From: Candidatus Zipacnadia bacterium | GTDB taxonomy: Bacteria; Armatimonadota; Zipacnadia; Zipacnadales; UBA5352 | Direction of reading: 5' to 3' | DNA length: 42,012 nucleotides | NCBI GenBank assembly: GCA_029821265.1 | Contig: JALGTR010000003.1 | Coordinates: 1 to 42,012 of the forward strand | Shown: in pieces, positions 6,001-12,000 of the stretch | How the letters are laid out: each line of letters opens with the position of its first letter | Numbering within the stretch: position 1 is the stretch's first letter | Position numbers: made by a program

Positions 6001-9000
6001 GCGGCTCCGGCGGAGGCGGGGGCTGTATGCCGCCATTGTCGTCATTCGGTTCGCCTCCGGGGGGCACTGGCGCTGGCTCAACCGTAGGGCCGCCTGTGTC
6101 GTCGCCGATGAACGGAGGGTTTCCCCCGGTGCCGTCGCACGCGGCGAACACGATGACCGTCAGCAGGATCGAAATGAGCAAGAGGCATTTAACCTTCACG
6201 GCGTCTCTCCCCTCGGATCGGCAGTGACCGCGATCAAACAGTTCACCATCGGGGCGAAAACCCCTTCGTCACCCTATCGTATCAGTCGGTGGCCTCTCTG
6301 TCCAGCCCATATCGCATCCGTCGCCCCGGGACGAGGCATCGCGCGAGAGGTAGACGACGAGTATAAAGAGAGCCAGCGCCAGGTCCAGCCCTGTTACATG
6401 CGCCACATCAGCCAGCGGGTTCATTATTGCTCCTCCCATCAATCGAACGTCAGTTCGTATTCTACTCGCCCCGGAGCGGTGCGTCAACCCAAATATCGAA
6501 TTAACGTTCGACGTGTCGCCATCCGACCGGATGATGATGTCGCATTCCGCGAGGGCCTTGACTGCACTCCTATAATAGTGTAACGTGGGGACACTCTTAT
6601 AGAATTGTCGATCGTGCAGGAGGGACGCGGGTTCCATGATTGCCCCACATGGCGGGAAGCTCGTCAATCGCGTGCTTGAGGGTGACGCGCTCGAGGAGGC
6701 CAGGTCGAGGGCTGCGGATCTGCCCAGGCTGGCGGTGACCGAGGAGATCCTCAGCGACGCCCGCAACCTCGCCCGCGGCGTCTTCAGCCCGCTCGAAGGC
6801 TTCGTCACGGAGCAGCAGTTCAATAGCATCGTGAACGACGAGCGCCTGCCGGATGGCACGATCTTCCCCATCCCGATCTTCCTGACCGTCGATGAGCCTG
6901 ACGCTGTTGCGGCGGGCTCACAGGTTGCGCTGGTGAGTGAGAGCGATCCCGAGAGTCCCGTCGCGATTCTGAACGTCGAGGAGATCTACCAGTGGGATAA
7001 GGAGAAGGCTGCGGCATCGGTTTTCGGGACGGCTGACACCGATCATCCCGGCGTCACCGGCTACCATGCGCGCGGCGACCACGCAGTCGGCGGGACGGTT
7101 GACCTGATCGACAACGATCGCGGGCCGTTCGCCGAGGTGAACCTGTTTCCGGCCGAGACCCGGGCGCTCTTCGAGGAGCGCGGCTGGCGCACCGTCTGCG
7201 CCTTCCAGACGCGCAATGTGCCGCATGCGGGACACGAGGACCTGCAGAAGACCGTGCTGGGGCTTGTTGACGCACTGATGATCCAGCCGGTCATCGGCAA
7301 GAAGAAGTCCGGTGACTACCAGGATGCGGTGATCATCGCGGCGTACGAGGCGCTGATCGCGAATTACTTCCACCCTGACCGCGTCCTGCTGAACATCCTC
7401 CCGACGGAGATGCGCTACGCCGGGCCGAAAGAGGCCATCCTCCACGGCATCATGCGCAAGAACTACGGGTGCACGCACATCATCATTGGTCGCGACCATG
7501 CGGGTGTCGGCAACTACTACGGTGAGGAAGAGGCCATCGAGAAGTTCGAGGCGATGGCGGATGAGCTGGAGATCATGCCGATCACTATCCGGGGCGACTT
7601 CTGGTACTGCTGTGAGTGCGGCCGTGTCGCCTCGAATCGCACCTGCCCCCACGATGGCGATGCCTGCCTGTCGTTCAGCTGCACCGAGATTCGCGCCATG
7701 ATCCGGGAGGGCACGCCGCCCCGGTCCGAGATCATGCGCAAAGAGGTCTTCGAGGTCATCCAGCAGTTCGATCAGCCGTTCTGCGAGTAGTCCGCCCAAA
7801 GGCGATCACAGGGAGAGTTACCATGGAGAGCGGATTCGTCATCTGGTTCACCGGTATACCGGCTTCCGGGAAATCCACCATAGCGACCGAGGTCCAGCAG
7901 CGGGTTGAGGCGATGGGTCTTCCGGTCGAGAACCTCGACGCGGATGAGGTGCGCGCTAATCTCAGCCCGAATCTCGGCTACACCGAGGAGGCGCGCGACG
8001 AGAACACCAAACGTCTGGCCTGGTTTGCGCAGAAGCTGTCCGGCTACGGTGCGAACGTCGTCATCGCGGCCGTTGCCCCGCTCCAGAAGTACCGCGACCG
8101 CGCGCGTGCCTGGTGCGAGAAGTTCGTCGAGGTTCACGTGGACACGCCGCTTGAGGTGTGTCAGGAGCGAGACCCCAAGGGCCTCTACGCACGAGCCGCT
8201 CGCGGCGAGGTGAACGACATCGCCGGGATGCACCAGCCCTACGAGGCGCCGGAGAATCCCGAGGTCCATGTCAGGACCACCGAGGCCACCGTCGAGGAAT
8301 GCGCCGACGCGGTCATCGCGAAGCTGCGTGAGCTGGGCTACCTTCCGGCCGCAGCCGCCCAGCAGGCGGGCGAGTAGCCGTGTTCAGCTTCTTCCGCCGC
8401 ACGCCGCAGCGCAGGCTCCTCGTGATCGGTCTCGATGGCGTTCCGCACTCGCTGCTGACGAGGCTCATCGAGGACGGGGAGATGCCGACACTGGCGGAGA
8501 TCGCCCAAACAGGCGACCTCCGCCGCGCCATCTCCACCCAGCCGACCGTCTCCTGCGCCGCCTGGACATCGTTCGTGACCGGGGTCAACCCCGGGGCGCA
8601 TGGCGTCTTCGGCTTCGTGGACCGCAAGCAGGGCTCTTACGATCAGTACATCACCGGCTCGCGCTACGTCATCGCGCCACAGATCTGGCGCGTGCTGAGC
8701 GAGCGCAACCTGCGCAGCATCATCATGAACGTGCCGGTGACCGCGCCGCCGCCCGAGATCAACGGGATGGTCGTCAGCGGCTTTCTCGCGCCGAAACTTC
8801 AGGGGGCGACGTACCCTGAGAGCCTTGCCCAGCGCCTCGATCGTCTCGGTTACCGCATCGACATCGACCCATGGAAGGCGCGCGAATCGCTCGACTTTCT
8901 GCTCGAAGACCTCGACGCGACCCTGAAGGGTCGGGTGGCGGGCGCAACCGACCTGCTCTCCCGCGAGAAATGGTCATATGCGATGGTGCACATCATGGGC

Positions 9001-12000
9001 ACTGACCGCATCAACCACTTCATGTGGGGCAAGTGGGCCGAGGATGACCCTGTCTACGCCCCGCAGTTCGTCGACTACTATCGGAAGGTCGATGCCGCCG
9101 TGGGGGAGATCGCGCGAGCCGCCGGCGATGACACCGAGCTGCTTCTGCTGAGTGACCACGGCTTCACGAAGACCATCCGTGAGGTGAACATCGACGCGTG
9201 GCTGCGCGAGCGCGGCTACCTCAACCTGCCGGTCTCCGAGGAGGCCCGCATCTCGGACGTCGATGAGCGAAGCCGCGTCTTCTCGATGACACCCGGGCGC
9301 ATCTACCTCAACGTGAGCGAACGTGAGCCGAAGGGCTGCGTCGAGGCGGGGGAGGAGTACGAGACGCTTCGCGATGAGCTGATCGAGGGTCTCATGCAGC
9401 TGAGGGACCCTGAGACCGGCGAGCAGGTGCTCGAGAGCGTCCAGCGCCGGGAGGACCTCTGGCAGGGGGAGGCGCTTGACCGCGCACCCGACCTGCTGGC
9501 CATCCCGCGCGATGGATATGACCTTAAGAGCACGCCCGGCAGCAATGATCTCTTCACCACCAGCCCGATCACCGGCATGCACACCTTCGACGATGCCTTC
9601 TGGCTGATCCGCGGGCGGCAGTTCCACGATGGGACGCCCTCGGTCCACGACGGCGCCGCCACGGCACTTTCGCTGCTTGGCCAGGAGATACCGGCGTCGA
9701 TTGAGGGGCGGCCGATGGCGTAAGCGGGCACGGGCACTGCGGGAAGACCGTCGGTGCGGGACGCAGGATGCGGGGCGGCCGATGGCGAAGTTGATGGGCG
9801 AACCGCCGGCAAAGCACAGGGGGGAAGGTGGCCCTCATCTCCGACACCGCACTCGTCTCAAGGCCCGAAGATCGCGCCGACCGACGCTCCGTCGTCTGCG
9901 CTCCCGGCGTGCGTCACCCCGGCGGCGGCTATCTGGCGCTGCCCAAGCGCGTCCTCGATATCGCCGGCGCGATCGCGCTTCTTCCCGCCGCGGCAGTGAT
10001 CGTGGCTGCCGCTGCTGTGGCCATCAGGCTCACTTCTCCCGGCCCGGCGCTATACCGCCAGCTTCGCGTCGGCCGTGGCGGCCGCGTCTTCACGCTGCTC
10101 AAGCTACGGACGATGGTTGACGGGGCCGAGGCCGAGACAGGGCCAGTCTGGGCCGCGCCGGATGACCCGCGCCTGACGCCCGCGGGAGGAGTCCTCCGAC
10201 GATTTCACATCGACGAACTGCCCCAGCTGTGGAACGTTCTGCGCGGTGAGATGAGCCTCATCGGCCCCCGCCCCGAGCGTCCCCATTTCGTGCGCAGACT
10301 GCGCGGCGTGCTTCGAGACTACGACGACCGCCTCTCTGTCCGGCCCGGGATCACAGGATGGGCTCAGATCCACCGCGGTCCGGACACCTGCATCGCCGAT
10401 GCAGCGGAGAAGCTGCGCTACGACCTGGAGTATGTCCGCCGGGCATCACCCGGCCTCGACGCCCGGATCGCGCTGGAAACTCTTCGCACTGTGCTGATCG
10501 GTCACTGACGTGATTTGACAGCCGAGGCACATTGTGTTACGTTCTCCCAAAGTGTGTCACCGGAGGCGACGATGAGTGCCCTGGAACGTTTCGGCGTCTC
10601 GATGTCCCGGGATCTGCTTCGGCAGTTCGATCAGGCGATCAGGGACGCCGGGTACGCCAATCGGTCGGAGGCGCTGCGCGACATCGTGCGGGACTTCCTC
10701 ACGCGCCGGCGCTGGGAGGAGCCCGGTGAGGAGGTCGTGGGCACGATCTCCATCGTCTACGATCACCACGTGCACGACGTCAACGCCACGCTGACAGCAC
10801 TGCAGCATGACGCCGAGGCGAGGGTCATCTGTGCGACCCACGTACACCTCGACCATCACAACTGCATCGAGGTCATCGTGGTGCGTGGCCAGGCGGACGA
10901 GGTGCGACGCCTCGCGGACCACATGATCAGCATTCGGGGCGTCAAGCACGGCGCTCTGAGCTGCACATCCGACCAACCATGAGACAGGAACCCGCAGCGC
11001 TCGTTTTTTTTGTGGACAGCGGTAACACGATTTCTTGAATAGTAACACGCTTGGAGTGTCCTGATGCCACGCCGTGGTTTCACGCTCATTGAGCTGCTTG
11101 TGGTCATCGCCATCATCGCGATTCTGGCGGCAATCCTCTTTCCCGTGTTCTCTCGCGCGCGTGAGAGGGCGCGCGCGATCACCTGTGCCAGCAACATGAA
11201 GCAGATGGGCCTGGCCTTCGCGATGTACACCACCGACTATGATGAGACCTACCCGCCGACCTATCAGTGGAAGACGAACCTGCAGCCGTACATGCGCAAC
11301 ACGCAGATGTTCAAGTGCCCCAGCCGGCCGCAGCTTCCCTGGTACTACGGCCACGGCTACAACTGCGGGCTCTTCGGATGGGAGACCGTTGACGGGAATC
11401 CGGCCGCAGGTTTCGCGGAGCGTTCGCTGGCAGCGATCGTCAGCCCCAGCCACAAGATCCTGCTCGCCGAGTGGGACCGATGCAACTCAGGTCCCCCAAA
11501 CGGCATTAGGGCGGTGACCAGGGGCGGCTCCACCTGTGCGTGGTCGGTCAGCAGGGTCCACAACGACGGCTCGAATGTGCTCTTCGGCGACGGTCATGTG
11601 AAGTGGCTCAAGCCCGACGTCTACCACTCGAACACCGAACGCGAGGAGAACGGGACGATCATCCCCGCCGATGCTCGTCCAGTTCCAGAGGAGATCTGGC
11701 GCGAATACTGGGACACGAGGTACGAGGTCAATTGAGTACGCGGAACCCGGAGGGCTCTCAGACCACCGTTGCTGAGCAGTTCGAACGCGCGCGGGAGCTG
11801 ACCGTCGGCGGCCTGGCGATCGCGCTCGGAGTGCTTGTGCCGATAGTGTTCCACGCGATCGGAGGCGGTCGGGCGGGCAGCACATTCCTCCCGATGTACC
11901 TCCCGGTTCTCGCGTGCGGTATGCTGGTCTCGCCGGGTATCGCGGCCGCGGTGGGGCTGATCACACCCGCGCTGTCGTCGGCGCTCACCGGGATGCCGCC

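What a model noticed while it worked through the whole genome (the two positions that open the first line are those of the whole stretch)
6636..10508. NPP-like (PF01663) proteins beside sat-cysC are likely a new class of PAPS-dependent glycan sulfotransferases
ATP sulfurylase and APS kinase form an operon with a 'phosphodiesterase' (g00768) and a priming glycosyltransferase, and paralogues fill the capsule locus on C189, yet the genome has no canonical sulfotransferase, no chromosomal PAPS reductase and no sulfite reductase to use PAPS. I read these alkaline-phosphatase-fold, serine-nucleophile proteins as ping-pong sulfotransferases that move sulfate from PAPS onto surface polysaccharide. It would name the missing bacterial glycan-sulfating enzyme family in thousands of genomes.
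Evidence so far: APS_kinase within two genes of Phosphodiest in 43 of 66 order genomes and 2,210 genomes overall; ATP-sulfurylase in 35 and 1,387. PF00685 and PF13469 absent here, PF13469 in only 19 of 67 order genomes; the only PAPS_reduct hit is in the prophage. 19 of 46 homologous loci from many phyla and an archaeon have sat or cysC within 5 kb, a further one has CysN. Invariant S52 and metal ligands D19, D209, H213, D259, H260, H401 in 31 homologues. Four paralogues alternate with glycosyl- and methyltransferases next to wzz/wza on C189. No close solved relative.
(Added by a program. Inside this text positions count along the whole contig: contig position 1 is position 1 of the stretch shown here. 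"Call 12" and the like, gene names such as g00115 and contig names such as C1 are that model's own, and its searches are not shown. The text may have been shortened before it was handed on; [...] marks where a part breaks off. The agent that wrote the report below was given it as the finding of a first reader that could run no searches.)

Follow-up and report, generated by a model that had tools for sequence, protein, structure and literature searches.

The report
Sulfation enzyme that grips tyrosine tails
The enzyme encoded right after the two sulfate-activating genes is predicted to grip a short tyrosine-ended tail shared by many proteins of the same pathway, and it likely loads activated sulfate onto that tyrosine for hand-over to sugar-decorating enzymes, which would be an undescribed route of glycan sulfation.

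Summary
The sat-cysC-AlkP operon is real. No P-loop sulfotransferase or sulfite reductase was found in this 93%-complete genome. Corrections: the nucleophile is Ser58, not Ser52; PF01663 lumps several clades; and alkaline-phosphatase-fold glycan sulfotransferases are already published (Agl30/Agl31).

The window gene (clade a) has no tail. Its glycan-locus paralogues, APS kinases, RHH regulators and Agl30/31 end in an RLxxLGY tail (Tyr in 182 of 183). A predicted complex puts this tail in the window enzyme's active site, with the Tyr beside Ser58 (0.86 against best control 0.03).

The sister clade c, probably the published weak pyrophosphatase TON_1705, swaps operon slots with a canonical sulfotransferase. 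In 61 archaeal genomes the two exclude each other (7 and 11 genomes) and both occur only with tails.

Best reading: a sulfotyrosine relay, with this enzyme as a loader and the tailed paralogues sulfating glycans (0.4). Rivals: tail eraser, pyrophosphatase with a docking tail, or direct glycan sulfotransferase. No activity is shown. The scan noted this operon, tail and relay before on other DNA; the docking model and clade split were tested here.

The parts
6636..7790 (+). sat, ATP sulfurylase (384 aa)
   Evidence: PF01747 E 8.6e-81, PF14306; TIGR00339 and PRK04149 above cut-off
7823..8377 (+). cysC, APS kinase (184 aa); keeps only its native C-terminal helix and lacks the added LGY tail that the CysC of relatives L010, L011 and L013 carry
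   Evidence: PF01583 E 5.7e-51; TIGR00455 above cut-off; tails
8380..9723 (+). Clade-a AlkP-superfamily enzyme (447 aa, PF01663), soluble and tail-less; Ser58 nucleophile; metal ligands D19, D209, H213, D259, H260, H401; predicted receptor of the RLxxLGY tail
   Evidence: pLDDT 97.3; highest 19-residue hydropathy 1.14
9828..10508 (+). Small phosphoglycosyl transferase (Bac_transf domain only, 226 aa); variable passenger of the operon
   Evidence: PF02397 E 1.5e-58; present in L008, absent in L007, L009, L131

Best explanation
The gene after sat-cysC encodes a soluble two-metal alkaline-phosphatase-fold enzyme that is predicted to bind a C-terminal RLxxLGY tail in its active site and likely transfers sulfate from PAPS (or APS), through Ser58, onto the tail's tyrosine. 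Steps: (1) Sat and CysC make PAPS (gene families shown). (2) A loader sulfates the tail tyrosine (inferred). The loader is a short canonical sulfotransferase (ST2) or the AlkP clade c, which swap places in the operon (shown), and probably also this clade a. (3) Tailed AlkP enzymes use their own sulfotyrosine as an aryl-sulfate donor and pass sulfate via their Thr/Ser to sugar hydroxyls (inferred). These are the clade-b paralogues on C189, C36 and C128, the Thr-type sulfatase-like proteins on C40 and C316, and Agl30/Agl31 in Halobacterium. (4) The same tail on RHH regulators and APS kinase would report sulfation capacity (inferred). The link of the whole system to sulfation is more certain (about 0.7) than the loader role of this gene.
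For: Docking: window protein plus the tail of the genome's own RHH scored 0.86 against a best control of 0.03; the mark was reached by 116 of 157 solved and 2 of 215 mismatched pairs (counts hold only roughly, as my own alignments were used); runs agree in at least 86% of contacts; partner pLDDT at least 64. The tail Tyr touches V57, G78, F79, V80 next to S58; the Leu before Gly touches metal ligand H213; the Arg touches D161. Interface residues are more conserved than the rest (0.62 vs 0.47). No tail-like sequence in the PDB. Tail census: Tyr in 182 of 183 distinct tails defined without the Tyr, never Phe; the one exception is the frameshifted C189 copy. None of 237 short homologues has a tail, while 17 long ones do. 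Cloning primers of Agl30/Agl31 read as the same ending (PMC11980604 Table 1). Profile: tail in 25 of 27 clade-c genomes plus G000 and in none of the other 93 Armatimonadota; Sat is in 65 of 121, so the tail does not follow Sat. In 61 Thermoplasmatota, ST2 is in 11 and clade c in 7, never together and always with tails. Slot swap: sat-DHH-c-cysC in L094-L097, sat-DHH-ST2-cysC in L212 and L213. AlkP-tail-TPR-ST2 fusions exist. Seventeen of 78 clade-a genomes show neither c nor ST2, including all six Planctomycetota where a sits by cysD-cysN, which leaves a as the candidate loader there.
Against: No activity is shown for any clade-a protein. The slot swap and the exclusion concern clade c, not a: 61 of 78 clade-a genomes already have c or ST2, so a would be a second loader. 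Among those 78 bacterial and other genomes ST2 and c are not exclusive (both in 12; p 0.29). A probable clade-c enzyme hydrolyses PPi in vitro (kcat 2.1/s, Km 18.8 uM; second-hand from PMC9653972 Table 1), and c is fused to Sat in 4 loci. The docking model shows no chemistry; an inhibitory or scaffolding plug would look the same. Moving sulfate from a Ser ester to a phenol is uphill, and Ser mutants of sulfatases get trapped as sulfate esters (recalled). Some archaeal clade-b proteins end in LGK or lack the motif (L102, L106, L111). Two tailed haloarchaeal glycan clusters have no annotated PAPS gene within 20 kb. Haloferax volcanii, where Agl30 works, gives only a weak APS-kinase match. All genomes are incomplete MAGs and kin are not independent.
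Confidence: 0.4

Rival explanations
1. Same tail system, other direction: clade a takes sulfate off tails that c or ST2 loaded, either as an eraser that resets the RHH and CysC tails or as a tail-less transferase that uses their tails in trans and sulfates a common acceptor.
For: a coexists with c or ST2 in 61 of 78 genomes and with c in 9 of 10 Armatimonadota. Aryl sulfate to Ser is the downhill direction (recalled). The tail docks in its active site. Glycan genes lie within 10 kb in 27 of 80 loci.
Against: 17 of 78 clade-a genomes show no c or ST2, including six Planctomycetota and archaeal G001 and G044. a is coupled to the enzymes that make the donor (cysC or cysD).
Confidence: 0.2
2. Housekeeping hydrolase of the PAPS operon (PPi, or PAP, APS or PAPS), with the tail as a docking or inhibitory plug that builds a complex with CysC and couples the RHH regulator to the enzyme.
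For: TON_1705, in the same type of operon, hydrolyses PPi (PMC4463584 passage; PMC9653972 Table 1). PPi removal limits Sat in vitro (PMC10322725 passage). Conserved Arg185, Arg210, Arg307 and Lys383 suit a small polyanion. Closest folds are PhnA and NPP. Sat-c fusions exist.
Against: By synteny TON_1705 is clade c, not a. Its kcat is several hundred-fold below other thermophile pyrophosphatases in the same table (744-1080/s). The genome has an H+-PPase. A hydrolase would not be expected to swap slots with a sulfotransferase. Tyr is never replaced by Phe.
Confidence: 0.2
3. One reading: the enzyme is a ping-pong sulfotransferase that moves sulfate from PAPS directly onto surface polysaccharide.
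For: Operon with sat-cysC; no P-loop sulfotransferase found in the genome. PF13469 is in 10 of 28 AlkP genomes against 31 of 50 other APS-kinase genomes. Agl30/31 precedent (PMC11980604).
Against: One conserved clade across phyla with unrelated glycans. The active site is predicted to hold a peptide. The precedent enzymes are tailed and sulfatase-like, unlike this one. The sugar transferase neighbour is variable.
Confidence: 0.12
4. Phospho-relay: the enzyme uses PPi released by Sat to phosphorylate the tail Tyr as a flux signal.
For: AP-fold enzymes are phosphoryl transferases (established); PPi turnover by TON_1705; Tyr beside the nucleophile.
Against: Does not explain the swap with a sulfotransferase or the loss of glycan sulfate in Agl30/31 deletions (PMC11980604).
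Confidence: 0.05

Closest known systems
Archaeal copG-sat-DHH-type I phosphodiesterase-cysC cluster (TON_1704-1707 of Thermococcus onnurineus; PYCH_17520-17560 of Pyrococcus yayanosii; PMC8268124, PMC4463584; Lee 2009 seen only second-hand)
   Same: PF01663 gene inside a PAPS-making operon with no known PAPS consumer; RHH regulator.
   Different: The enzyme in that slot is clade c by synteny; the window gene is clade a, downstream of cysC, with a Ser nucleophile. The cluster was read as PPi disposal; the passages read mention no tail.
Agl30 (VNG1056C) and Agl31 (VNG1057C) of Halobacterium salinarum (PMC11980604); Agl7 of Haloferax volcanii (PMC3892788)
   Same: AP-superfamily proteins needed for glycan sulfation; Agl30/31 end in the same LxxLGY motif (from cloning primers).
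   Different: They are sulfatase-like and tailed and lie in glycan clusters; the parts read give no donor or mechanism. The window protein is NPP-like and tail-less. The fold of Agl7 was not checked here.
NPP/ENPP and phosphonoacetate hydrolase PhnA
   Same: Fold (TM 0.60-0.64) and two-metal ligand set.
   Different: 17% identity or less; Ser for Thr; the Asn 21 residues after the nucleophile is Phe79, which contacts the tail; cytoplasmic.
P-loop PAPS-dependent sulfotransferases, including tyrosylprotein sulfotransferases and RaxST (the latter two recalled)
   Same: Proposed reaction (PAPS to a protein tyrosine in an acidic stretch); a member of this fold (ST2) fills the same operon slot as clade c.
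   Different: Unrelated fold; there sulfotyrosine is an end product on secreted proteins, not a cytoplasmic carrier.
Aryl-sulfate sulfotransferase ASST (recalled; cited in PMC11625862)
   Same: Ping-pong transfer from an aryl sulfate donor.
   Different: Beta-propeller fold, His intermediate, periplasmic, small-molecule donor.

Membership tests
Alkaline phosphatase superfamily, NPP-like (PF01663) | Profile match above cut-off and AP core fold | tested here: met
   152.9 bits against cut-off 23; Foldseek PhnA and NPP
Alkaline phosphatase superfamily, NPP-like (PF01663) | Two-metal ligand set and Ser/Thr nucleophile | tested here: met
   D19, D209, H213, D259, H260, H401 in at least 146 of 150; S58 in 149 of 150
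NPP/ENPP and PhnA proper | Thr nucleophile and the Asn of the HGxxGN motif (its role is recalled) | tested here: not met
   S58 and F79 (96% Phe) at these places
NPP/ENPP proper | Nucleotide phosphodiesterase activity | not testable with these tools
   Needs an assay
TON_1705-type enzyme (clade c) | Belongs to the clade that sits between sat or DHH and cysC | tested here: not met
   Separate clades in the FastTree tree, SH 100 each; no own-genome match to the c profile at 1e-80. TON_1705 is placed in c by synteny only; its sequence was not obtained
P-loop PAPS-dependent sulfotransferases (PF00685, PF13469) | P-loop fold with 5'- and 3'-phosphate motifs | tested here: not met
   Only PF01663 matches; AP fold
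Agl30/Agl31-type AP-fold glycan sulfotransferases | C-terminal LxxLGY tail (my criterion, read from the paper's primers) | tested here: not met
   Absent in the window protein and 237 short homologues; present in paralogues on C189, C36, C128, C40, C316
Agl30/Agl31-type AP-fold glycan sulfotransferases | Sequence or structure similarity to Agl30/31 | not tested
   Their full sequences were not obtained
Agl30/Agl31-type AP-fold glycan sulfotransferases | Deletion abolishes glycan sulfation | not testable with these tools
   Uncultured host
Formylglycine-dependent sulfatases | C/S-x-P-x-R motif and PF00884 match | tested here: not met
   The sequence after S58 has no Pro or Arg of the motif; no PF00884 match

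The most novel reading that the evidence does not exclude
A portable C-terminal tyrosine tail works as a covalent sulfuryl carrier arm in bacteria and archaea. It is loaded from PAPS by either of two unrelated enzyme folds, including the family in this window. It is unloaded by thousands of 'alkaline phosphatase family' and 'sulfatase-like' proteins onto glycans, and it is read by RHH repressors and APS kinase as a sulfation gauge.
Probability: 0.4. Interest if true: 0.93.

Novelty: categorically new. Interest (0 to 1): 0.8.

Why it matters
Agl30/Agl31 show that enzymes with no PAPS-binding fold can sulfate glycans, but their donor and mechanism are open. Many microbes also make PAPS with no known consumer. 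A tyrosine carrier arm would answer both questions. It would re-annotate a large set of proteins (15,560 clusters at 50% identity match the window protein at E up to 0.001, not all of this system) and would give a sequence tag for predicting sulfated glycans. One Tyr-to-Phe mutant in an existing Halobacterium assay can test it.

Tried and rejected
S52 as nucleophile: rejected.

Sat as tail receptor: not favoured. Sat is in 65 of 121 genomes and the tail in 26, and tails occur with cysDN. This was not tested by folding.

Clade a as the sole tail partner: rejected; 16 of 26 tailed Armatimonadota have c but no a.

Strict ST2/c exclusion everywhere: fails among 78 clade-a genomes (both in 12).

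A degenerate DNA pattern for the tail was too noisy and missed the own genome; it was replaced by the profile A5. PF03567 and PF09037 searches were uninformative (controls silent). The maximum-likelihood tree did not finish, so FastTree was used; it has long-branch warnings for clade-b rows. The promoter scan gave no site on the + strand before sat and no terminator between the genes. The PDB sequence search with ST2 gave no significant sulfotransferase. The atlas search of the RHH gave only CopG clusters. The fold search of the clade-b model did not show where its tail packs. Lee et al. 2009 is not held. No supplements were read; those of PMC11980604 may hold sequence details.

Rows dropped before counts: G072 and G161 (weak tail hits not covering LGY), G015 (weak, internal hit), and G051 (between clades b and c, counted as not c). 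G034 was added as tailed from L099.
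Full report
Observation. The window holds sat (6636-7790), cysC (7823-8377), a PF01663 protein (8380-9723) and a Bac_transf gene (9828-10508) on one strand. Named homologues are Armatimonadota. The genome is 92.6% complete. 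It has no match to PF00685, PF13469 or NIR_SIR, one PAPS_reduct hit among Mu-like prophage genes, an H+-pyrophosphatase and a PF05935 hit. Paralogues lie on C189 (four, the last frameshifted), C36, C92 (two), C128 and C277. The protein folds at pLDDT 97.3 and resembles PhnA and NPP at 17% identity or less. The nucleophile is S58: it aligns with the PhnA Thr and is Ser in 149 of 150 homologues, against 118 for S52.

What is in print. Agl30 and Agl31 of Halobacterium salinarum are AP-superfamily proteins whose deletion removes glycan sulfate and whose expression adds it in Haloferax (PMC11980604; parts 1-5 of 7 read). Agl7 contributes to hexose sulfation (PMC3892788, passages). An archaeal copG-sat-DHH-phosphodiesterase-cysC cluster is described, with PPi removal as the speculated role (PMC8268124, passages). 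TON_1705 in that cluster is listed as a pyrophosphatase (PMC4463584, passages) with kcat 2.1/s and Km 18.8 uM, against 744-1080/s for three other thermophile enzymes (PMC9653972, Table 1). The original paper was not readable. PMC10322725 and PMC11625862 were seen as passages. Searches listed nothing on an LGY tail or a sulfotyrosine carrier; I saw listings only.

The family splits. Among 80 GTDB loci of the window gene's relatives, 45 have a PAPS gene within 5 kb, 27 have a glycan gene from my query set within 10 kb, and 2 have a canonical sulfotransferase (many contigs are short). A FastTree tree of 132 rows separates clade a (the window gene, 81 rows), clade c (25 rows, typically between sat and cysC, fused to Sat in 4 loci), clade d (the C92 membrane pair) and diverse long clade-b proteins of glycan loci. 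In four archaeal sat-DHH-X-cysC loci, X is clade c (624-669 bits against 278-292 for a; DHH named from a recalled motif and its position). This is the gene order of TON_1707-1704, so the published pyrophosphatase is probably c, not a. In 121 Armatimonadota genomes, c is in 27 and a in 10; 9 of those 10 also have c, and G000 is the exception. All 28 have APS kinase, against 50 of the other 93. PF13469 is in 10 of the 28, against 31 of 50 other APS-kinase genomes.

The tail. A C-terminal acidic helix ending RLxxLGY closes APS kinases, CysD, RHH regulators, DUF2061 proteins, clade b, some clade c and Thr-type sulfatase-like proteins. It is on up to five neighbouring genes in one island (L129). 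In the own genome it ends the C30 RHH, the C36, C128 and three intact C189 paralogues, and the C40 and C316 proteins; the Cys-type sulfatases listed lack it. The Agl30/31 cloning primers encode the same ending. None of 237 homologues of 400-480 residues has it. Defined without the Tyr, 182 of 183 distinct tails have Tyr; the exception is the frameshifted C189 copy. Some of these loci were fetched with the tail profile, which biases the count. In the clade-b alignment the column reads Tyr 89, gap 3, Cys 1, Lys 1 of 94, and at least 16 of those rows were chosen knowing they had a tail. Three archaeal clade-b proteins end in LGK or lack the motif. The tail is in 25 of 27 clade-c genomes plus G000 and in none of the other 93 (two weak hits dropped). 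Sat, in 65 of 121, does not track it.

The tail docks in the window enzyme. The predicted complex with the C30 RHH tail scored 0.86 against a best control of 0.03. The mark was reached by 116 of 157 solved and 2 of 215 mismatched pairs, counts that hold only roughly because my own alignments were used. Runs agreed in at least 86% of contacts and the partner pLDDT was at least 64. The Tyr touches V57, G78, F79 and V80 beside S58; the Leu before Gly touches metal ligand H213; the Arg touches D161 and F135. These surface residues are more conserved than the rest (0.62 against 0.47). The PDB holds no similar tail. This supports binding; it shows no chemistry.

A sulfotransferase swaps with the sister clade. 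In 61 Thermoplasmatota genomes 21 have tails, mostly on an RHH heading sat or cysD. Eleven have a short P-loop sulfotransferase (ST2) and seven have clade c. None has both, and none of the 40 untailed genomes has either (the ST2 query came from one of the 11). L212 and L213 read RHH-sat-DHH-ST2-cysC, the slot that c fills in L094-L097; L201 reads sat-ST2-cysC. ST2 is also fused as AlkP-tail-TPR-ST2. ST2 was not found in 19 Armatimonadota with a or c. Against this: among 78 clade-a genomes, c is in 51, ST2 in 22, both in 12 and neither in 17 (p 0.29), so exclusion is not general. The 17 include all six Planctomycetota in which a lies by cysD-cysN. Genome G209 (L044) is unpublished; it gives one row of the 80-locus and 78-genome counts and one of 40 tail rows, and L040 shows the same layout independently.

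Mechanism. Shown: PAPS synthesis genes, the clade split, the tail, its co-occurrence and the c/ST2 slot swap. Predicted: the tail Tyr lies at the active site of the window enzyme. Inferred: the Tyr is sulfated by ST2, c and probably a; tailed AP enzymes pass the sulfate to sugars; tailed regulators sense the load. PPi turnover by TON_1705 would then be a side reaction on a similar anhydride. The weak points are these. The evidence for loading is strongest for c. Clade a mostly coexists with another candidate loader. Ser-sulfate to phenol transfer is uphill (recalled). Haloferax, where Agl30 works, matches APS kinase only weakly. I give 0.4 to a as loader, 0.2 to eraser or hand-on, 0.2 to hydrolase with a docking tail, 0.12 to direct glycan transfer and 0.05 to a phospho-relay.

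Verdict. The operon and AP-fold glycan sulfation are known. The tyrosine-tail relay was not found in the searches named. Earlier notes of this scan raised the operon and the tail and relay on other DNA. I reached the tail and the relay (note) before seeing the latter; their agreement is not independent evidence. Interest 0.8.

Noticed in passing
L127, L128, L129 (G122, G175, G184): Compact island RHH-sat-c-cysC-a-DUF2061 facing two or three membrane or TAT-signal AlkP genes (clade d), a second RHH and, in L127 and L129, a sulfatase-like and a membrane gene; four or five of the genes end in the tail. The d pair lies alone on C92 in the own genome and next to clade a in L033, L073, L076 and L144.
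   Followed up: partly
G000 C189:7072-8636 (L001): The fourth paralogue is split by a frameshift, and its tail is the only one of 183 without Tyr; likely a decaying copy or an assembly error.
   Followed up: partly
G000 C342:11401-12507: Arylsulfotransferase-like gene (PF05935) with no obvious signal peptide at its start; a possible further sulfate-moving enzyme.
   Followed up: no
L125, L126 (Natronorubrum and Halobaculum plasmids): Haloarchaeal glycan clusters carry three tailed clade-b genes each and no annotated PAPS gene within 20 kb; all 30 listed of the 61 plasmid records with a match were haloarchaea.
   Followed up: partly
Control genome Haloferax volcanii: Only a weak APS-kinase match and no Sat match at 1e-20, although it sulfates glycans; the donor there may be APS or come from a divergent kinase.
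   Followed up: no
L046, L053, L056, L058, L060, L084, L206: Clade a sits by cysD-cysN with no cysC in the locus, and CysD itself ends in the LGY motif; suggests APS as a possible donor.
   Followed up: partly
G000 C72:2000-20000 (L214): Mu-like prophage (transposase, Gam, terminase, portal, DNA methyltransferase) carrying the genome's only PAPS_reduct-domain gene.
   Followed up: partly
window 10515-13846: nikR, a DUF1559 prepilin-like gene and ECF-type transporter genes follow the operon; nikR and the prepilin-like gene are also conserved after clade a in L009 and L131.
   Followed up: no
window 5954-6199 (-) and 6459-6487 (-): A small lipoprotein-like ORF divergent from sat, with a sigma-70-like site (10 of 12) on its strand.
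   Followed up: no
P0121, P0131: Proteins of 1,100-1,150 residues with repeated AlkP matches; P0121 is two tailed clade-b units in tandem.
   Followed up: no
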